From assembly GCA_035389265.1 (NCBI GenBank), contig DAOORM010000001.1, positions 1-28,524 on the forward strand: DNA of 28,524 bases, written 5' to 3'. Of this stretch, positions 2,801 through 11,037 are shown in pieces. Both the position numbers and the translations under genes were made by a program. The notes below the pieces were generated by a model that worked only from the letters and a program-made list of their open reading frames with translations, searched no databases and was not told where the DNA came from. The stretch comes from Flavobacteriales bacterium. Lineage in GTDB: Bacteria > Bacteroidota > Bacteroidia > Flavobacteriales_F > PHOS-HE28. The number at the start of each line of letters is the position of its first letter. Positions within the stretch are counted from its first letter, which is position 1.

Positions 2801-4939
2801 TCAGGCCTTCGTCGCGTAGACCGGATCCTTCTCGCGTGCCCAATGGCGATGAGCCGCGATGGCGTCGATGAAAGCATTGATCACCGCTTTGCCGGTACGT
2901 CCGTGCACCATCCCGGGTCCCTCCTTGTCCTCCGCCATACCCCAGGCATCGAACAGTTGGTCGGCATTGCCGATCAGCGCGATTGCTTTGGCGTGGCGAT
3001 GGGCATCGCATACGAAGTCCTTCGCATCGGGGTAGTGCAGCCACGGTTCTTGGTTCACCACGGCAATGGCATCGAAGACCACGGAAGTGCTCGTCATCAG
3101 GGTCTGATCCACTCCTTTCGCCAAGGTCGGTGCGATCACCTTCACCATGGCGCCTTCGGCTTCCAGGGCGGCCTTCAGCGCTGTGGCATCGCGTATGCCA
3201 TCCATGTCCGCCAGGATGCCCACACGTCGTGTACGGATCCCTTCCTTGAGAGTGTTCGCCATGCTCAACGCTTCGGAGCGCTCCACCACGGGCTTCTCCT
3301 CGTAGGGTTGCACATCATCGGGTGATGTGTCCGCCGGAATGCTATGGTTGAGGGGTTCCACCACTGCGGGCACTTCCAGATCGAAGGCTTCGGCCACACG
3401 GGTGGCGAGGTCATGATCCACATAGGCCAGCAGACCGATCATCCGTTCACGCACTGCGGCGGTATCCAGCTTGGCCAGTTCGAACCGGAGCGCGTTGATG
3501 ATGTGGTTCTGCTCAGGCGTGCTTTGGCTTCTGTAGAACAACGTGGCCTGGCTGAAATGGTCCATGAACTTCTCGCTCTTGGCGCGCACCTTCATGTCTT
3601 CCATGGGCTCGGGAAAGGAGGTGGAACCGCCGTTCTTCATGGCCGCTTGGAAGGGACAGCCACCGCCGAGTGAATTGGGCTCGTAGTTGATGTGGTTCTT
3701 GTTGATGGTCTGTCGCATGTGTCCATCGCGGTGGTTGTTGTGCACCGGTGCGAGCGGCCGATTGATGGGGATCTCGTTGAAATTGACACTGCCCAGGCGG
3801 GAGAGCTGCGTATCGGGGTAAGAGAACAGCCGCCCCTGCAACAACGGATCGTTGCTCAGGTCTATCCCGGGCACCAAGTGGCCTGGATCGAAAGCCACTT
3901 GCTCGGTCTCAGCGAAGAAATTGTCCGGATTGCGGTTCAAGGTCATCTTGCCTACGCGCTGCACCGGCACGAGTTCTTCCGGGATCAACTTAGTGGGATC
4001 GAGAAGGTCGAAGGGGTATTTATGTTCATCCTTGGCCGGTACGATCTGTACACCCAGTTCCCATTCCGGGTAGTCACCGTTCTCGATGGCCTCCCACAGA
4101 TCACGCCGGTGGAAATCCGGATCCTTACCACTGATCTTGGTGGCTTCGTCCCAGGCCACGGAATGCACGCCGAGCAGGGGTTTCCAATGGAATTTCACGA
4201 AGCTGCTTTCTCCCTTAGCATTGACGAAGCGGAAGGTGTGCACACCGAAACCCTCCATCATGCGGAGGCTGCGCGGGATGGCACGATCGCTCATGGCCCA
4301 CATGATCATGTGCATGCTTTCGGGCATCAGACTGATGAAGTCCCAGAAGGTCTCGTGCGCGCTGGCGGCCTGTGGCATTTCGTTATGCGCTTCGGGCTTC
4401 ACGCTGTGGATGAGGTCGGGGAACGTCATCGCATCCTGGATGAAGAAGACCGGGATGTTGTTGCCGACCAGATCATAGATGCCCTCATCGGTGTAGAACT
4501 TCACGGCGAAGCCGCGCACGTCACGCGCCAGATCGGTGCTACCCCGCGAACCGGCCACCGTGCTGAAGCGCACGAACACCGGCGTGCGGCGCGCAGGGTC
4601 GTTGAGAAAACCGGCCTTGGTCCACTTGGCCAGTGGCTCATAGACCTGGAAGTAGCCATGCGCCCCGGACCCACGCGCGTGAACCACCCGCTCGGGGATG
4701 CGCTCATGATCGAAGTGCATGATCTTATCCCGCAGGATATGGTCCTCCAGCAACGTGGGACCACGCAACCCGGCCTTCAGACTGTTCTGGTTGTCGTTGA
4801 TGGGAAGACCCTGATCCGTCGTTAGCCTTTGATCGGCCGCGTCGGTGGTGTTCCTTCGGAGATCGGTGGTCTTCGCGTTCTCGTTGGATTCTGGTTTGCG
4901 CGTTGAAGTGCGCTTGCGGGGCGTATCACGTTTGGCCAT
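2801..4939 (-). CDS. katE: Large-subunit monofunctional catalase HPII (clade 2) with C-terminal DJ-1/PfpI-like domain
   Basis: Distal His motif [38 protein letters not shown], proximal Tyr motif [13 protein letters not shown]-terminal AHRHW; 712 aa. Confidence 0.97.
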
Positions 4940-5265: not shown

Positions 5266-5373
5266 TCACTCCACGTCATCATCACGGTGGTCCCTGTCCA
5301 TCCGCCAGAATCGGTAAGCCACGTAGCAGATCACAACAAAGTAGAGGACGACTAATGAGGTATGTAGCAGCAT
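5266..5373 (-). CDS. Putative 35-aa single-pass membrane peptide
   Basis: MLLHTSLVVLYFVVICYVAYRFWRMDRDHRDDDVE: a ~20-residue hydrophobic helix followed by a charged tail. Confidence 0.4.
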   Translation of the reverse strand: MLLHTSLVVLYFVVICYVAYRFWRMDRDHRDDDVE

Positions 5374-5545
5374 GCATGTAGCTGCGTTCACGATCCGGGG
5401 AAGGATCTCCCCAGACGCAGCGTTGGCGAAGCAAGCGAAGTGGCGGAGGGATTTGGACCAAAACCGGACCAGCGACTGCAAAAACTCCACGGGTATGAAC
5501 CGATGTTCGACGAATTCGCGGAGGGTGTTAGCCGCATACGTTGAG

Positions 5546-5561
5546 TGGCACGCCTATGGAG
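5546..5561 (+). promoter_or_regulatory. Sigma54-like -24 box upstream of the DUF892-like paralog
   Basis: TGGCACGCCTATGGAG: perfect TGGCACG, weak -12 half; the box ends 23 nt before ATG 5585. Confidence 0.3.
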
Positions 5562-5584
5562 CATTCAGGTTCAAAAGCACCACC

Positions 5585-6076
5585 ATGGCTACCCGACCAT
5601 TCATCCGTATGCTGGAAGTGAAACTGGACGAAGCCTTTTTCGTGTTCTCCCAGCTACCCAAACAATTGAACGGTGCCGCCAGGCGGCTAGGACTGCATGC
5701 CCTGCGTACCGATGTACTGGCCCGTGCGAGTGTGCTCGGCGCGCGCGCTATTAAATTGATGACGGCCCTGAGCAAGTGGGGCGGCCGCAAACCGGCCCCT
5801 TGCGATTGCGCCGATCTCGCCACCGAGCTGAACGACCTGCGCTACGCATCGAAGACGACCGCGCCGGAACGCTGGCTCTATTCCAAAGCACTGCATATCA
5901 CGAACAAGCTCACGGGCATGGTGCACGAGCGCTTGGTGCAGGCGCGGCGCTTGGCGATCTTGCTGGGCGAGCGGGTCCTTGCCGCCGACATCAAAGAGTT
6001 GTTGGAGGAAGAGCCTGTAGCAGAGGCCCAGTTGAACATGGCTGAAGGTGACCACAGCCCCTCCAACGGTACGTAG
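5585..6076 (+). CDS. Divergent DUF892/YciF-like ferritin-fold protein lacking most metal-ligand motifs (163 aa)
   Basis: Aligns by hand to the YciF at 6438-7019 over ~145 residues with one single-residue gap (e.g. MLEVKLDEAFFVFSQLPKQL vs LFEDQLADLYYVEKQLLKAL; AADIKELLEEEPVAEAQL vs VALIEETMDEEKAADEKL; the mid-protein Cys is conserved). The start is set at ATG 5585 rather than the ORF-track 5372. Confidence 0.7.
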   Translation: MATRPFIRMLEVKLDEAFFVFSQLPKQLNGAARRLGLHALRTDVLARASVLGARAIKLMTALSKWGGRKPAPCDCADLATELNDLRYASKTTAPERWLYSKALHITNKLTGMVHERLVQARRLAILLGERVLAADIKELLEEEPVAEAQLNMAEGDHSPSNGT

Positions 6077-6437: not shown

Positions 6438-7019
6438 TCAAGACGCTTTGCGCCCTGCCTTCTTCGCGACCGTTCTGGTGCGCGTGGCCGTGACCACCTC
6501 TTCTTCCTCTTCTTCCTCGTCGGCCTCGATGTTCACCACGGTCTCGGCGATCTCGCTGAGCTTTTCGTCAGCGGCCTTTTCCTCATCCATAGTCTCCTCG
6601 ATCAGCGCGACAGCTTCGGTCAGCTCGAGCTGTTCGGCCCAAGCCTTCAAACTGCCGTAGGAGGTGATCTCGTAATGTTCCACCTTCTGGGCTGCGCTCA
6701 CCAAGCCGGCATCCAGCGCTGCATCATCGGCGAACTCCTCCATGATCTCCTTGCCCTCTTCGAGGATCCCATCGATCGCAGGACATTTCTTGGCCTTGGC
6801 CGTCTTTCCGATGCTGGCGAAGATGTCCTCCAGACGACCCACCTGGGTCTCGGTTTCGGCGAGGTGATCGGTGAAGGCTTCGCTAAGCTCCTCGTTGGTG
6901 GCCTTCTTAGCCATCTTCGGCAGTGCCTTCAGCAGTTGCTTCTCCACGTAGTACAAGTCGGCGAGCTGGTCCTCGAACAGTTTCATCAGACCGGTGCTCT
7001 CGTTCTTCTTGGTCGTCAT
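6438..7019 (-). CDS. yciF: YciF/DUF892 ferritin-like stress protein with acidic-then-basic C-terminal tail
   Basis: LADLYYVEKQLLKALPKMA, HLAETETQVGRLE, KCPAIDGILEEG, AAQKVEHYEITSYGSL, DEEKAADEKL motifs. Confidence 0.92.
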   Translation of the reverse strand: MTTKKNESTGLMKLFEDQLADLYYVEKQLLKALPKMAKKATNEELSEAFTDHLAETETQVGRLEDIFASIGKTAKAKKCPAIDGILEEGKEIMEEFADDAALDAGLVSAAQKVEHYEITSYGSLKAWAEQLELTEAVALIEETMDEEKAADEKLSEIAETVVNIEADEEEEEEEVVTATRTRTVAKKAGRKAS

Positions 7020-7058: not shown

Positions 7059-7406
7059 TCACTTCATGGGCTTATCGATCTGGGTCTTCTGTCCTTCGGG
7101 CATCTTGTCGCCACGATGTGCATCGGGCCCCTTGTCCTCGGCGCGGGTGCGGCTGGCGTCGTTACCTTCTTCGCGCTCGGTGTTGTGGTCCGGCTTCGGA
7201 TGCGCAGGTTGGCGGTCGTCCTTTTTGCTGTCGGGCTGACCACTACGATCCTGTCCTGGGTTCGTACGCGTGGCATCGGTTGCATCACCGGCCTTGCCCT
7301 GCTCGTTCGGGCGGCGTTCCTGGTGCTTCTCGGTACCTGGAGCGGTGTCTTTTCCCTGGGTTCCACGTGGTGTGTTGTCCGGGGTGTTGGTTTGATCGCG
7401 TTCCAT
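7059..7406 (-). CDS. Intrinsically disordered hydrophilin-like protein (115 aa)
   Basis: From ATG 7406 the protein has no L, V, F, W, Y or C, one I and 11 Gly, and is rich in D/E/K/R/Q/T/P. It ends 39 nt upstream of yciF on the same strand. Confidence 0.7.
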   Translation of the reverse strand: MERDQTNTPDNTPRGTQGKDTAPGTEKHQERRPNEQGKAGDATDATRTNPGQDRSGQPDSKKDDRQPAHPKPDHNTEREEGNDASRTRAEDKGPDAHRGDKMPEGQKTQIDKPMK

Positions 7407-7876
7407 GATGCTGATGTATTTTGATGATGATGCCGCACAGGTCCGTTTCTCGGAACTTCCATACGACTTCATGAACAACCACGCAGATCACCGGCCATTG
7501 AAGTGGCACGCACGACAGCGCGTTATCAACGGGGAATGACGGGGTATGTACACCACAGAGATGCACGATCGCGGGAAATAGCACCACGCGGTGACCAGGA
7601 AAACGCCGACGGTGCTGGTCGCCCCCCTTGCACTCACCCCCTCTGACGTGAACAGAGGAACTCCACGATCACGTTCGCCTTGGACGAACGTTGATCAAGG
7701 CATGAACACCAACTGCTGCACGTGGGAACGACCATGACGATCCGCGACGCGAATGCCCAATACACCACCGGCTTGCACCTGCAAAGGCAACGAATGGTCG
7801 AGACAGCCGACGTGTTCTCCAAGCAAGAGAAAGAAAGTTGGATCATCGCCAGGGGGGCACGATCTAGCGGTATACT

Positions 7877-7904
7877 TGTAACAGCCGCTGTCACCAGCGC
7901 GTAA
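7877..7904 (+). promoter_or_regulatory. Candidate ECF-type promoter for the methyltransferase-prenyltransferase operon
   Basis: TGTAAC-N17-CGTAA fits the AAC/CGT pattern of many ECF promoters. An overlapping TATACTTG (7871-7878) could instead be a housekeeping -7 variant. Confidence 0.3.
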
Positions 7905-7954: not shown

Positions 7955-8671
7955 ATGAAGGAACTTGAGGACCAGCGTTGGTTCCCAGCTATGTTGAGGA
8001 ACTACCAGACGGAGTTCATCGGATCGGTGGTGGTGTGGCTGCGGGTCTATGTGCCTGTGACGCGTAGGTTGCGCCAACGCCTGGGTAAACCCGTACCAAT
8101 GGTGGACCTGTGTTCGGGCAGTGGTGGACCGGCAATCACCATATACCGCGAAAGCGGCGCATTCTCCAGCTTGACGCTCACCGATAAGTTCCCCGGAAGC
8201 CCACAGCCACCAAATGCCCCATGGAGCTACGTGCAGGAACCGGTGGATGCACTTGACCTAGAACCCGAACGGGGGACATGCTACACCATGTTCAATGCCT
8301 TCCATCATTTCAGTGATCAGGATAAGCTGCGGATCATACGCCGCCTGCGTGACAGCGGATGCGAAGCCTGCTTCGTAGAGCTGCTTGAGCCTACGGTCCT
8401 GTGTGCGTTGAAGGTGATCCTGATGGGCACGATGGGCACCCTGCTGTTCACCCCCTTCGTTCGTCCGTTCTCGCTGGGGCGCTTGTTCTTCACCTACATC
8501 GTTCCAGTGAACGTGGTCAGCATCACCTATGATGGTGTGGTCTCCGTGCTACGTGCCCGCTCCGCGACGCGATACGCAGCCTTGTTCGCCGGCGAGGACG
8601 GAGCTGTGCAGGTCACCAGGCTGGCCGGCCGAATACTCCCTCTAACCTTGATCACCCTCCGCGCCCGATGA
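7955..8671 (+). CDS. Class I SAM-dependent methyltransferase with hydrophobic C-terminal insert (membrane-associated)
   Basis: Motif I VDLCSGSGGP, acidic end of beta2 (TLTD), DA motif, TMFNAFHHF post-II motif, and a hydrophobic segment at TVLCALKVILMGTMGTLLFTPFV...FFTYIVPV. The stop overlaps the next start (ATGA). Confidence 0.8.
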   Translation: MKELEDQRWFPAMLRNYQTEFIGSVVVWLRVYVPVTRRLRQRLGKPVPMVDLCSGSGGPAITIYRESGAFSSLTLTDKFPGSPQPPNAPWSYVQEPVDALDLEPERGTCYTMFNAFHHFSDQDKLRIIRRLRDSGCEACFVELLEPTVLCALKVILMGTMGTLLFTPFVRPFSLGRLFFTYIVPVNVVSITYDGVVSVLRARSATRYAALFAGEDGAVQVTRLAGRILPLTLITLRAR

Positions 8672-9600
8672 GACGGTTGGCTGTGCTTTGGCATTTCGCT
8701 CGACCGCACACCGTGCTGGGCAGTGCCATCAGCATTTGCACACTTTATGTGATGGTAACGCATGGCAACGCGGACCATCATGTCCTGCTGCTCGCTGCAG
8801 CGTTGGTCATGGGGATCACGTGCAACATCTTCATCGTAGGGATCAACCAGATCGCCGATGTGGAGATCGACCGCATCAACAAGCCACGATTACCACTACC
8901 CTCGGGTGACCTGACCCCTGTTCAGGCGTATTGGATCGTCGCTCTTTGTGCGCTCACCAGTCTCATTACGGCAGCATTCATCTCGCGCTACCTGCTCGGC
9001 ATCATCGCATTCTCGATCGCCATCGGTTGGGCCTATTCCATGCCTCCCCTTCACCTGAAACGGCACCACATCACAGCTGCTTTGGCTATTGCCAGTGTGC
9101 GGGGTTTGGTGGTGAACATGGGAGGCTTCCTCATCTTCAACCACTTGGTCAATGGCAGGTGGGAGTTACCGCCGGACATGCGTGTGCTCACCATGTTCAT
9201 CGTCGCCTTTTCGGTGGCCATCGCCTGGTTCAAAGACCTACCTGACATGGAGGGCGATGCGCGACATGGCATCCGGACCCTCGCCATCCTCTACTCACCC
9301 TTGACCGCGTTCTACGCTGGTCATCTGCTGATCGGGGCTGCGTATCTCTGCACCATCGGATTGGAGTTGAACAACCAGCGGATCAATGGAACCTACCTGG
9401 TCAAGGACATGGTCCTCCTCATCGGCCACGCGCTTCTTGTCGTGTTGTTCGTCGTGAACGCGTTCTCCATTCGTATGAGCGATGTAGGTTCGGTCCGAAA
9501 GTTCTACCAGCGATTCTGGTTGTTCTTCTTCGCTGAATACCTCTTGTACTTAGCGGCGTACCTGGCAACCTCCGGAACCGTCGTTCCCGGGTCGATGTGA
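8668..9600 (+). CDS. hpt: UbiA-family prenyltransferase, homogentisate phytyltransferase (Slr1736/VTE2)-like
   Basis: N-terminal F-x-RPHT, NIFIVGINQIADVEIDRINKPRLPLPSG (NQxxDxxxD), AYSMPPLHLKR, VRGLVVNMG, IAWFKDLPDMEGD (KDxxDxxGD), C-terminal FYQRFWLFFFAEYLLY; ~8-9 TM segments. Confidence 0.85.
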   Translation: MRRLAVLWHFARPHTVLGSAISICTLYVMVTHGNADHHVLLLAAALVMGITCNIFIVGINQIADVEIDRINKPRLPLPSGDLTPVQAYWIVALCALTSLITAAFISRYLLGIIAFSIAIGWAYSMPPLHLKRHHITAALAIASVRGLVVNMGGFLIFNHLVNGRWELPPDMRVLTMFIVAFSVAIAWFKDLPDMEGDARHGIRTLAILYSPLTAFYAGHLLIGAAYLCTIGLELNNQRINGTYLVKDMVLLIGHALLVVLFVVNAFSIRMSDVGSVRKFYQRFWLFFFAEYLLYLAAYLATSGTVVPGSM

Positions 9601-9955: not shown

Positions 9956-10549
9956 TCAGGCCTCCAATTCAGAGATCAACACGCGCAGGTTGTCCACTTC
10001 GCGTCCGAAGGCCTCGCGGAACATCCAGCGCGCCAACCACGCGCAGAGCGGACTGAAAATGAGCGCCAACACACCAAGCAGGACAAGGAAACCGGGTTCG
10101 CCAAGGAGTGCGCTCAAGGGTTCATCTCCACCAGCAAGCGCACCGAGCAGGCCACCGGCTACCACACTGATCGGGTAGAAGAACCAACCAGCGCGCTGCT
10201 GCACATGCATCCACCGATCGAAGGCATCACGTTGGCGTCGCAGTTCGTCAAGGACGGTGAACTCAGCACGCACCGTAGTGTCGAGCCCACGTGCTAATAG
10301 CCATGTATCGAGCATGGACCAAAAACAGAAGGCGGTGACCAACCACAAGAGCACGATCAATGGCATGTCCTGTGCGCGAAGAGCGAGATAGCCCATAACG
10401 ATGGTAAGGATAACGCCATAAGCCATATTGATGCGCAGTGCACGTTGCAAGCGTATGAGCGGATGTCGCGATCCCCTAGTCGTGCTGAAAGGATCCAAAG
10501 GTCTTTCCTCCCGTGTGTCCGGTGCTTCCCAAATGCGTTGCAGCTCCAT
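9956..10549 (-). CDS. 4-TM membrane protein, putative anti-sigma partner of the upstream ECF
   Basis: Starts 2 nt after the ECF stop. MELQRIW N-terminus, two TM pairs flanking a cytoplasmic helix, and a C-terminal amphipathic LRVLISELEA. Confidence 0.7.
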   Translation of the reverse strand: MELQRIWEAPDTREERPLDPFSTTRGSRHPLIRLQRALRINMAYGVILTIVMGYLALRAQDMPLIVLLWLVTAFCFWSMLDTWLLARGLDTTVRAEFTVLDELRRQRDAFDRWMHVQQRAGWFFYPISVVAGGLLGALAGGDEPLSALLGEPGFLVLLGVLALIFSPLCAWLARWMFREAFGREVDNLRVLISELEA

Positions 10550-10551
10550 GG

Positions 10552-11037
10552 TCAGTGTGGGTTCAGTAGTTCCGTTAGGCGGGCCTTGATGCGGTGAAGT
10601 TTCACCGCCACATGATTCGCCGTGAGCCCGAGCATGACACCGGCCTCTGCATGATCGAAGCCATCGAGGTGAAGCACCAGCAGCGCCCGATCAGCGGATG
10701 GCAATCGACGCATAGCGGTCTGGAGGCGTTCGCGTTCGTCGTTCGCGCGTATGGGTTCATCACTTCCGGTGTCGGGCAGCTCACCTTCGGTGGTCGTGCG
10801 CACGATGGCAGGCCGGCGGTTCCAGGTCAGGGCCGTGTTCAAGGCGATGCGGTACAACCAGGTACTGAACTTGGCTTCGCCCCGGAAGCGCGACCAACCC
10901 TGCCAGGCTTGCAGCAGCATTTCCTGCTCCAGATCCTTGCGGTCATCCGGATGACCGGTGTACAAGCCCGCTATCCGGTACACGATACGGCGATGCTCGT
11001 GCACCAGCCCTAGGAAGCGCGCCTGTTCCGGATCCAT
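10552..11037 (-). CDS. ECF RNA polymerase sigma-70 factor
   Basis: Region 2: DLEQEMLLQAW...FRGEAKFSTWLYRIALNTAL. Region 4: LPSADRALLVLHLDGFDHAEAGVMLGLTANHVAVKLHRIKARL. Confidence 0.93.
   Translation of the reverse strand: MDPEQARFLGLVHEHRRIVYRIAGLYTGHPDDRKDLEQEMLLQAWQGWSRFRGEAKFSTWLYRIALNTALTWNRRPAIVRTTTEGELPDTGSDEPIRANDERERLQTAMRRLPSADRALLVLHLDGFDHAEAGVMLGLTANHVAVKLHRIKARLTELLNPH

What the first reader, a model, noticed from the sequence alone, without database searches (positions are those of the whole stretch)
7955..9600. Homogentisate-phytyltransferase-like gene coupled to a methyltransferase in a heterotrophic Bacteroidota: possible vitamin-E-like or new prenylquinol antioxidant pathway
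Seen: the 310-aa protein carries the features of the homogentisate prenyltransferase branch of UbiA rather than UbiA/MenA/COX10: F-x-RPHT at the N-terminus, NQxxDxxxD...INKP.LPL.SG, AYS.PP..LKR, VRG.VVN.G, KDxxDxxGD and FY..FW..FF.EY at the C-terminus. Its start overlaps the stop of a SAM methyltransferase (ATGA, 8668-8671), which implies translational coupling. Known: HPT (Synechocystis Slr1736, plant VTE2) makes 2-methyl-6-phytylbenzoquinol, the committed step of tocopherol synthesis, a pathway regarded as essentially restricted to oxygenic phototrophs; the next steps are methylation and cyclisation. Many Bacteroidota degrade Tyr via HppD and so have homogentisate. Inference: this operon prenylates homogentisate (or a similar aromatic acid) and methylates the product, giving a tocochromanol, plastoquinol-like or new lipid antioxidant. 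Its position next to a katE/yciF stress cluster fits that role. No tocopherol cyclase or hppD is in this window.
Basis: partly seen in the sequence, partly recalled or inferred. Interest (0 to 1): 0.85.

Follow-up and report, generated by a model that had tools for sequence, protein, structure and literature searches.

The report
Homogentisate-type prenyltransferase plus methyltransferase cassette
A non-photosynthetic Bacteroidota genome carries a tightly coupled two-gene unit, an unannotated type of methyltransferase plus a membrane prenyltransferase of the vitamin-E/plastoquinone family, that probably makes a methylated prenyl-quinol lipid but lacks the enzyme needed to close the vitamin E ring.

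Summary
ORF 8668-9600 (310 aa) is a UbiA enzyme of the homogentisate prenyltransferase family. It scores 276 bits against NCBIfam NF009525 (cut-off 226). Its best reviewed structural match is Synechocystis Slr1736 (37% identity, TM 0.89). It keeps about 14 family-specific residues and groups with cyanobacterial HPTs and plant-length family members, apart from chlorophyll-synthase-type outgroups.

ORF 7955-8671 (238 aa) hits no Pfam or NCBIfam model but folds as a class I SAM methyltransferase. The ATGA stop/start overlap is kept in 17 of 18 related loci, down to about 40% identity.

The cassette is patchy: 23 of 132 genomes in the order, and hundreds of Bacteroidota metagenome proteins. Its flanks vary, so the catalase/YciF link is local.

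No tocopherol cyclase was found here or in four 98-100% complete carriers. No VTE3/VTE4-type methyltransferase was found either, so tocopherol is unlikely. HppD is near-universal in the order.

Best reading: homogentisate is prenylated and the ring methylated once. These are the same two steps as the plant HST+VTE3 plastoquinol route.

The substrate, chain length and role are inferred, not shown. The scan noted the same cassette in another genome (e1-4592773). I found no paper on it.

The parts
7955..8671 (+). 238-aa class I SAM-dependent methyltransferase of an unannotated family, the upstream gene of the cassette
   Evidence: ORF. No Pfam or NCBIfam hit. 1282 homologues. AF2 model with pLDDT 91. 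Foldseek probability 1.0 to methyltransferases; the best full-length matches are MenG/UbiE at TM about 0.6.
8105..8125 (+). Methyltransferase motif I, D51-L-C-S-G-S-G57 (glycine-rich SAM loop)
   Evidence: D51, L52, C53, G55 and G57 are invariant in 30 homologues. The motif follows the first beta strand of the model.
8393..8455 (+). Hydrophobic helix of the methyltransferase cap (residues 147-167), probably a membrane or lipid-binding element
   Evidence: Kyte-Doolittle 19-residue mean of 1.89. Lies within helix 148-168 of the model.
8668..8671 (+). ATGA stop/start overlap between the two genes
   Evidence: Sequence. The same ATGA junction is in 17 of 18 related loci.
8668..9600 (+). 310-aa UbiA-superfamily membrane prenyltransferase of the homogentisate prenyltransferase family
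   Evidence: PF01040. NF009525 at 276 bits against a cut-off of 226. Foldseek top hit Slr1736, 37% identity, TM 0.89. Tree.
8845..8871 (+). First Asp-rich motif, N60-Q-x-x-D64-x-x-x-D68
   Evidence: Invariant in alignment A3. Q61 is specific to this family; the outgroup UbiA enzymes have D there.
9232..9258 (+). Second Asp-rich motif, K189-D-x-x-D193-x-x-G-D197
   Evidence: Invariant in alignment A3 and across all three groups compared.

Best explanation
This is a two-gene operon for a prenylated, methylated benzoquinol lipid. The UbiA-type enzyme (8668-9600) condenses homogentisate, supplied by HppD from tyrosine breakdown, with a polyprenyl diphosphate. The reaction includes decarboxylation and gives a 2-methyl-6-prenyl-1,4-benzoquinol. 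The co-translated methyltransferase (7955-8671) has a hydrophobic cap helix and adds one methyl group to the ring, giving a 2,3-dimethyl-prenyl-benzoquinol. These are the same two steps as the plant HST+VTE3 route to plastoquinol.

The product is not cyclised to a chromanol. It probably acts in the membrane as a redox-active quinol, either as an antioxidant or as an auxiliary quinone.

Shown: family membership of the prenyltransferase, the methyltransferase fold, conserved coupling of the two genes, no cyclase found, and HppD present. Inferred: homogentisate as acceptor, C-methylation, the prenyl chain length and the physiological role.
For: Family membership of the prenyltransferase:
- NF009525 scores 276 bits, above the cut-off of 226. 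That equals the scores of eukaryote-length (plant/algal-type) family members (279-292).
- The top reviewed structural matches are all homogentisate or plant aromatic prenyltransferases: Slr1736 37% identity, HPT1 32%, HST 29-31%. Chlorophyll synthase and DGGGPS come in at 18-21%.
- The family is split from the outgroup UbiA enzymes by a branch of 1.78 with SH-aLRT 99.
- 38 columns carry the same residue in the window's clade, cyanobacterial HPTs and the eukaryote-length group. About 14 of these residues, including H14, N53, G58, Q61, L75, R145 and W284, are absent from the outgroups.

Methyltransferase:
- Class I fold. The closest reviewed models are the quinol C-methyltransferases MenG/UbiE.
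- Invariant DLCSGSG, LTDK and YTMFNAFHHF motifs.
- A hydrophobic helix at residues 147-167.

Coupling:
- The ATGA overlap is kept in 17 of 18 loci, down to about 40% identity.
- The genes are adjacent in 20 of 24 carriers in the order, while the flanks differ.

Pathway context:
- No PF14249 cyclase in G000 or in four 98-100% complete carriers.
- HppD is in this genome and in 112 of 132 genomes of the order.
- An NAD(P)H-quinone-reductase-type gene (Flavodoxin_2/FMN_red) lies directly upstream of the pair in two contexts.
Against: - No biochemical data exist for any member of this clade.
- The clade (34 rows, SH-aLRT 99) is separate from cyanobacterial HPT and from the eukaryote-length group, and its deep position is unresolved (supports 45-79). 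Orthology to HPT or HST is therefore not shown.
- Plant members of the same family have switched acceptor to flavonoids, coumarins and acylphloroglucinols (names), so family membership does not fix the substrate.
- HppD is no commoner in carriers (18 of 23) than in non-carriers (94 of 109). One 98%-complete carrier, G409, shows no HppD.
- The methyltransferase fold does not tell C- from O-methylation. The top PDB matches are mostly aromatic O-methyltransferases.
- G000 is only 72.65% complete.
Confidence: 0.55

Rival explanations
1. Same enzyme family, different chemistry. The prenyltransferase uses another phenolic acceptor, such as 4-hydroxyphenylacetate, gentisate, hydroquinone or a resorcinol/polyketide phenol. 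The methyltransferase O-methylates it, giving a meroterpenoid unrelated to plastoquinol or vitamin E.
For: Acceptor switching is documented inside this family; reviewed plant members act on naringenin, umbelliferone, acylphloroglucinols and olivetolate. The window's clade is a distinct subfamily with an unresolved position. The top PDB fold matches of the methyltransferase are aromatic O-methyltransferases. HppD is not enriched in carriers.
Against: No gene for an alternative phenolic precursor (polyketide synthase, chorismate-using enzyme) recurs next to the cassette in eight contexts. The residues shared by the groups that hold the homogentisate-using enzymes are all kept. Its score against the cyanobacterial HPT model equals that of the eukaryote-length family members.
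Confidence: 0.25
2. A full tocochromanol (vitamin-E-like) pathway. The chromanol ring would be closed by an unrecognised cyclase or without an enzyme.
For: HPT-family enzyme plus methyltransferase. HppD and a geranylgeranyl-reductase-family gene are present in the genome.
Against: No PF14249 cyclase in G000 or in four 98-100% complete carriers. There is only one methyltransferase, and it is unlike VTE3/VTE4. Non-phototroph genomes that do look tocopherol-competent (Rhodothermales G128, Calditrichaceae) have a different layout: two canonical methyltransferases, an HPT scoring 378-381 bits, a geranylgeranyl reductase and, in G128, a cyclase homologue. The reductase family is near-universal in the order, so it says nothing about the cassette.
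Confidence: 0.1
3. The UbiA enzyme does not act on a small phenolic at all. It would prenylate a tetrapyrrole, a glycerol phosphate or a sugar phosphate, as chlorophyll synthase, DGGGPS or DPPR synthase do, and the methyltransferase would be functionally unrelated.
For: Weak cross-hits to chlorophyll synthase and DGGGPS models (72-96 bits). The only solved relatives are DGGGPS and chlorophyll synthase.
Against: All those models score far below their cut-offs. A long, well-supported branch separates them in the tree. Family-specific residues differ from the outgroups. The conserved ATGA coupling argues for a shared pathway with the methyltransferase.
Confidence: 0.05

Closest known systems
Homogentisate phytyltransferase Slr1736 (Synechocystis, P73726) and plant VTE2/HPT1
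   Same: Same UbiA subfamily. 37% and 32% identity and TM 0.89 in model comparison. The NF009525 cut-off is passed. The NQxxDxxxD and KDxxDxxGD motifs and about 14 family-specific residues are shared.
   Different: It forms its own clade and scores 276 bits against 470-486 for cyanobacterial HPTs. The host is not a phototroph. No tocopherol cyclase and no VTE3/VTE4-type methyltransferases were found. The substrate is untested.
Plant/algal homogentisate solanesyltransferase (HST) plus VTE3 (MSBQ/MPBQ methyltransferase): the plastoquinol-9 route
   Same: The logic is the same two steps: an HGA prenyltransferase, then one ring methylation, with no cyclase. HST is 29-31% identical. That the plant route needs only these two enzymes after homogentisate and solanesyl-PP is established knowledge.
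   Different: The methyltransferase here is not a VTE3 homologue. It hits no Pfam methyltransferase model, and its fold resembles MenG/UbiE only at TM about 0.6 and 13-18% identity. Chain length is unknown. The two genes are fused into a translationally coupled operon.
HPT-containing clusters of Rhodothermales (G128, OZ244956.1) and Calditrichaceae MAGs
   Same: These are also non-phototrophs carrying an HPT-family gene next to methyltransferase genes.
   Different: Their HPTs are much closer to cyanobacterial HPTs (48-54% identity to G128's HPT, 378-381 bits). They sit with two canonical class I methyltransferases and, in L039, a geranylgeranyl reductase. G128 also has a tocopherol-cyclase homologue and lacks the 238-aa methyltransferase family.
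UbiE/MenG (demethylmenaquinone / 2-methoxy-6-polyprenyl-benzoquinol C-methyltransferase)
   Same: Best full-length fold matches of the 238-aa protein among reviewed proteins. These enzymes methylate the ring of membrane prenylquinols.
   Different: No sequence-level family match; PF01209 is not hit. Identity is 13-18%. The N-terminal helices and the hydrophobic cap are distinct.
EboC / Ubi-297-type UbiA prenyltransferases of marine Flavobacteria (PMC9235831, PMC5133447)
   Same: UbiA-superfamily aromatic prenyltransferases found in Bacteroidota.
   Different: A different subfamily. The EboC model scores only 25.7 bits. PMC9235831 reports that no homogentisate prenyltransferase was found in the flavobacterial genomes it surveyed.

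Membership tests
UbiA prenyltransferase superfamily (PF01040) | Pfam model above gathering score; two Asp-rich motifs; a bundle of about nine membrane helices | tested here: met
   139 bits against a cut-off of 34.2. N60QxxD64xxxD68 and K189DxxD193xxGD197 are invariant. The AF2 model is an all-helical bundle with pLDDT 95.7.
Homogentisate prenyltransferase family (HPT/HGGT/HST; NCBIfam NF009525) | Score above the curated cut-off of the equivalog model | tested here: met
   276 bits against 226; the next family scores 96 bits. For comparison: cyanobacterial HPTs 470-486, eukaryote-length members 279-292.
Homogentisate prenyltransferase family (HPT/HGGT/HST; NCBIfam NF009525) | Groups with cyanobacterial and plant-type members to the exclusion of chlorophyll synthase, DGGGPS and other UbiA enzymes | tested here: met
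   The family branch is 1.78 long with SH-aLRT 99 in IQ-TREE and 99 in FastTree. Foldseek shows a clear drop from 24-37% to 18-21% identity.
Homogentisate prenyltransferase family (HPT/HGGT/HST; NCBIfam NF009525) | Family-specific conserved residues outside the general UbiA motifs | tested here: met
   F10, H14, G18, N53, I56, G58, Q61, L75, A137, R145, I185, W284 and others are conserved in the window's clade, cyanobacterial HPTs and the eukaryote-length group, but are different in most or all of the six outgroup sequences.
HPT proper (orthologue of Slr1736/VTE2, EC 2.5.1.115) | Nested within the clade of characterised HPTs | tested here: inconclusive
   The window lies in a separate 34-row clade (SH-aLRT 99). 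Branches joining it to the cyanobacterial and eukaryote-length groups have supports of 45-79.
HPT proper (orthologue of Slr1736/VTE2, EC 2.5.1.115) | Decarboxylating prenylation of homogentisate with phytyl-PP or GGPP | not testable with these tools
   Needs an enzyme assay or heterologous expression with LC-MS.
Tocopherol pathway (VTE1-VTE4) | Tocopherol cyclase (PF14249) in the genome | tested here: not met
   No hit in G000, which is 72.65% complete. No hit in G039, G378, G379 or G409, which are 98-100% complete. The positive case is G128, at 78-91 bits.
Tocopherol pathway (VTE1-VTE4) | VTE3- and VTE4-type class I methyltransferases | tested here: not met
   The partner methyltransferase hits no Pfam or NCBIfam model. 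G128's CMAS-like methyltransferase, which I take to be of the VTE4 type, finds only generic hits of 42 bits or less in carriers. G128's other, UbiE-like methyltransferase was not used as a query.
Tocopherol pathway (VTE1-VTE4) | Homogentisate supply (HppD) | tested here: met
   HppD fragments lie at contig ends of G000. Full HppD is in four of five carriers tested and in 112 of 132 genomes of the order. It is not specific to carriers.
Class I SAM-dependent methyltransferases | Rossmann-like seven-strand fold with a glycine-rich motif I and an acidic residue after strand 2 | tested here: met
   AF2 model pLDDT 91. Foldseek probability 1.0 to many SAM/SAH-bound methyltransferases. D51-L-C-S-G-S-G57 and D77 are invariant. 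SAM binding itself was not tested.
UbiE/COQ5/MenG family (PF01209) | Sequence-model match | tested here: not met
   No Pfam hit at E of 0.01 or below. The resemblance is at fold level only, TM 0.5-0.6 and 12-18% identity.

The most novel reading that the evidence does not exclude
Non-phototrophic Bacteroidota use this cassette to make a homogentisate-derived, plastoquinol-like dimethyl-prenyl-benzoquinol. That would be a benzoquinone class not known in this menaquinone-only phylum. It would be made by the plant-type HST+VTE3 logic, which cyanobacteria do not use for plastoquinone, but with a non-orthologous methyltransferase. The clade might then also bear on where the plant and algal homogentisate prenyltransferases came from.
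Probability: 0.35. Interest if true: 0.75.

Novelty: new variant of a known kind. Interest (0 to 1): 0.6.

Why it matters
Homogentisate-derived prenylquinols (tocopherols, tocotrienols, plant plastoquinone) are treated as a hallmark of oxygenic phototrophs. Bacteroidota are regarded as menaquinone-only.

A conserved, translationally coupled cassette of this family in many heterotrophic Bacteroidota points to an unrecognised membrane quinol. It could be a lipid antioxidant or a second, higher-potential quinone. The cassette also gives a compact two-gene target for expression and lipid analysis.

It defines a methyltransferase family with no Pfam or NCBIfam model. Current pipelines name the prenyltransferase 'homogentisate phytyltransferase'. 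That name goes beyond what is known, because the cyclase and the canonical methyltransferases are missing.

The comparison also turned up separate clusters in Calditrichaceae and Rhodothermales that look tocopherol-competent.

Tried and rejected
1. Naming tree clades through the listing of cluster members gave no organism names. Named cyanobacterial and Calditrichaceae references came from the search for related loci instead, and reviewed names from Foldseek.

2. HppD co-occurrence as a test of homogentisate use was not discriminating. HppD is in 18 of 23 carriers and 94 of 109 non-carriers.

3. Geranylgeranyl-reductase co-occurrence as a test of a phytyl donor was not discriminating. The family is in 117 of 132 genomes of the order.

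4. I rejected the catalase/YciF neighbourhood as a functional link. It is not seen in L006, L007, L009, L117, L118, L119 or L120.

5. Promoter leads went nowhere. No Bacteroidota -7 motif (TAnnTTTG) lies upstream of the cassette. An ECF-like AAC-N17-CGT at 7880-7902 recurs in only 5 of 16 relatives, at varying positions, which is about chance.

6. Eight literature searches found no paper on homogentisate prenyltransferases in Bacteroidota. PMC9235831 reports none in the Flavobacteria it surveyed.

7. The deep branching order within the family stayed unresolved in both FastTree and IQ-TREE. I ran no AU test.
Full report
**The observation**

The window holds two same-strand ORFs, 7955-8671 (238 aa) and 8668-9600 (310 aa). 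The stop of the first and the start of the second share the bases ATGA at 8668-8671.

**The prenyltransferase: family assignment**

The 310-aa protein matches Pfam UbiA (139 bits). Among NCBIfam models only NF009525, 'homogentisate phytyltransferase', passes its cut-off (276 bits against 226). The next models are a generic prenyltransferase, chlorophyll synthase and DGGGPS at 52-96 bits, all far below their cut-offs. PDB holds no close relative by sequence; the best is DGGGPS at E 6e-12.

An AlphaFold model built on 39 sequences has pLDDT 95.7. Its Foldseek matches among reviewed proteins were:

| Match | Identity | TM |
|---|---|---|
| Slr1736 of Synechocystis | 37% | 0.89 |
| Arabidopsis and rice HPT1 | 32% | 0.89 |
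| HGGT | 28-29% | 0.86-0.89 |
| HST | 29-31% | 0.87 |
| Plant flavonoid, coumarin and phloroglucinol prenyltransferases | 24-28% | 0.83-0.89 |
| DGGGPS and (bacterio)chlorophyll synthases | 18-21% | 0.64-0.76 |

**The prenyltransferase: tree and conserved residues**

I built trees from 145-152 sequences. They comprised the 150 best 50%-identity cluster representatives from a full HMMER scan, relatives from the same order, named cyanobacterial and Calditrichaceae sequences, and six outgroup UbiA enzymes.

- The whole family is separated from the outgroups by a branch of 1.78 with SH-aLRT 99. FastTree gives 99.
- The window falls in a 12-row clade (support 100) inside a 34-row clade (support 99).
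- The order in which this clade, the cyanobacterial HPTs, the Calditrichaceae/Rhodothermales group and the eukaryote-length group join is not resolved (supports 45-79).

NF009525 scores give the same picture:

| Group | NF009525 bits |
|---|---|
| Cyanobacterial HPTs | 470-486 |
| Calditrichaceae and Rhodothermales | 378-381 |
| Eukaryote-length members | 279-292 |
| The window protein | 276 |
| Other members of its clade | 239-308 |

Thirty-eight alignment columns carry the same residue in the window's clade, in cyanobacterial HPTs and in the eukaryote-length group. About 14 of them, including H14, N53, G58, Q61, L75, R145 and W284, are different in most or all of the six outgroup enzymes.

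So membership of the homogentisate prenyltransferase family is well supported. Orthology to HPT or to HST specifically is not.

**The methyltransferase**

The 238-aa protein hits no Pfam or NCBIfam model but has 1282 homologues, almost all unannotated. Thirty of them share these invariant features:

- DLCSGSG, a glycine-rich motif I.
- D77 in LTDK(F/Y)P, the acidic residue after strand 2.
- YTMFNAFHHF.
- E142, L144 and P146 of the (F/V)VE(I/L)LEP stretch.

The AlphaFold model (pLDDT 91) is a class I SAM methyltransferase. The best full-length reviewed matches are MenG/UbiE quinol C-methyltransferases (TM 0.5-0.6, 12-18% identity). The best PDB matches are aromatic O- and C-methyltransferases. 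The ESM Atlas finds only unannotated or generic 'class I SAM-dependent methyltransferase' clusters.

An inserted helical cap includes a hydrophobic helix at residues 147-167 with a Kyte-Doolittle 19-residue mean of 1.89. That fits a membrane or lipid substrate. The fold cannot tell C- from O-methylation.

**Coupling and distribution**

The pair is the conserved unit.

- In 18 loci spanning 39-100% identity, 17 keep the ATGA overlap and one has an 8-base overlap.
- In the window's order, 23 of 132 species genomes have a homologue of the prenyltransferase.
- The methyltransferase lies directly upstream in all 10 genomes of the 51-100% identity group (this genome included), and in 10 of 14 of the 40-44% group.
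- In a sample of 301 Bacteroidota genomes, only three passed the NF009525 cut-off.
- Flanking genes differ in all seven other contexts read. The catalase (2801-4939) and DUF892/YciF (6438-7019) neighbours are therefore local to this genome.
- A Flavodoxin_2/FMN_red gene, the NAD(P)H:quinone reductase type, sits directly upstream of the pair in two contexts.

**What the product is likely to be**

The genome is a MAG of 2.79 Mb in 608 contigs and is 72.65% complete.

- *Cyclase.* No tocopherol cyclase (PF14249) was found in it, nor in four carriers that are 98-100% complete.
- *Second methyltransferase.* None of the VTE3/VTE4 kind was found. The query was the CMAS-like methyltransferase of G128's cluster, which I take to be of the VTE4 type; it gave only hits of 42 bits or less.
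- *Chlorophyll synthase.* The genome's only other UbiA hit to the HPT model scores 22 bits. I ran no direct search for photosynthesis genes.
- *HppD.* It is present as fragments at contig ends and is in 112 of 132 genomes of the order. It is no commoner in carriers (18 of 23) than in non-carriers (94 of 109). One 98%-complete carrier, G409, lacks a detectable copy.
- *Geranylgeranyl reductase.* A gene of this family is present, but it is in 117 of 132 genomes of the order.

Homogentisate is therefore available, but its use is inferred from family membership alone.

A useful contrast comes from a Rhodothermales MAG (G128) and from Calditrichaceae MAGs:

- Their HPTs score 378-381 bits. Cyanobacterial HPTs are 48-54% identical to G128's.
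- These HPTs sit next to two canonical class I methyltransferases and, in one Calditrichaceae locus (L039), a geranylgeranyl reductase.
- G128 also has a tocopherol-cyclase homologue and lacks the 238-aa methyltransferase family.

That layout is what a tocopherol pathway in a heterotroph would look like, and the window's cassette does not have it.

**Mechanism proposed**

1. Homogentisate and a polyprenyl diphosphate are condensed by the UbiA enzyme.
2. The coupled, membrane-associated methyltransferase adds one ring methyl group.
3. There is no cyclisation.

These are the two steps that in plants turn homogentisate and solanesyl-PP into plastoquinol (HST, then VTE3; established knowledge). 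Here the methyltransferase is non-orthologous. I put this at 0.55. The rivals are a different phenolic acceptor and/or O-methylation (0.25), a true tocochromanol made with an unknown cyclase (0.10), and a non-aromatic substrate (0.05).

**Novelty**

Annotation pipelines already name these genes 'homogentisate phytyltransferase'. I found no paper on them in eight searches. One survey of flavobacterial UbiA enzymes reports no homogentisate prenyltransferase (PMC9235831). An earlier first-reader note of this scan describes the same cassette in another genome (e1-4592773).

I rate this a new variant of a known kind. It is a homogentisate-family prenyltransferase in non-phototrophs, fixed to an unannotated methyltransferase family, with no cyclase.

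Noticed in passing
L037 2090-4885 (Rhodothermales MAG OZ244956.1 = G128); L039 1945-6113 (Calditrichaceae MAG); L032 1117-2085: Candidate complete tocopherol-type gene sets in non-phototrophs. A UbiE-like methyltransferase, a CMAS-like methyltransferase, an HPT scoring 378-381 bits and, in L039, a geranylgeranyl reductase lie side by side. G128 also encodes a tocopherol-cyclase homologue (PF14249, 90.7 bits) elsewhere on the chromosome. I found no paper on this.
   Followed up: partly
L006 8588-9223; L118 4660-5262: A Flavodoxin_2/FMN_red protein, the NAD(P)H:quinone oxidoreductase type, lies directly upstream of the methyltransferase-prenyltransferase pair in two of seven other contexts. This fits a quinone/quinol product. 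I did not test whether the two contexts are independent.
   Followed up: no
G000 contigs C165:2-628, C201:4510-4614, C438:2209-2313: HppD is split across contig ends in this MAG, and its last 35 residues appear on two contigs. Many related MAGs also have HppD broken at contig ends. The locus seems hard to assemble, so missing HppD in a carrier is weak evidence.
   Followed up: no
Order-level genomes G366, G367, G369, G370 and G384: Four genomes have the 40-43% identity prenyltransferase but no methyltransferase hit at E of 1e-10 or below. One genome (G384) has a methyltransferase-like gene (127 bits) but no prenyltransferase hit at E of 1e-40 or below. These are exceptions to the pairing, or more divergent partners.
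   Followed up: no
window 7880-7902: An ECF-sigma-like AAC-N17-CGT lies 75 nt upstream of the methyltransferase start. An ECF sigma gene (10552-11037, -) and a possible anti-sigma gene (9956-10549, -) lie just downstream. The motif recurs in only 5 of 16 relatives at varying positions, so it is probably chance.
   Followed up: yes
window 16073, 18704, 21401, 27270 (+): All four TAnnTTTG matches (the Bacteroidota -7 promoter motif) are on the + strand. Three sit shortly upstream of long + strand ORFs (18716, 21452, 27294), although the total count equals the chance expectation. None precedes the cassette.
   Followed up: no
window 2801-4939 (-), 6438-7019 (-), 5372-6076 (+), 7059-7478 (-): A large-subunit (HPII-type) catalase with a Catalase_C domain and a DUF892/YciF-family protein lie upstream on the opposite strand. 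The ORFs between them and the cassette (234 aa and 139 aa, the latter low-complexity) have no Pfam hit and may not be genes.
   Followed up: partly
L009 8917-9291; L010 52-426: In one lineage a 124-aa ORF with no Pfam hit overlaps the start of the methyltransferase gene by four bases. It could be a third coupled gene. I saw no counterpart in the window.
   Followed up: no
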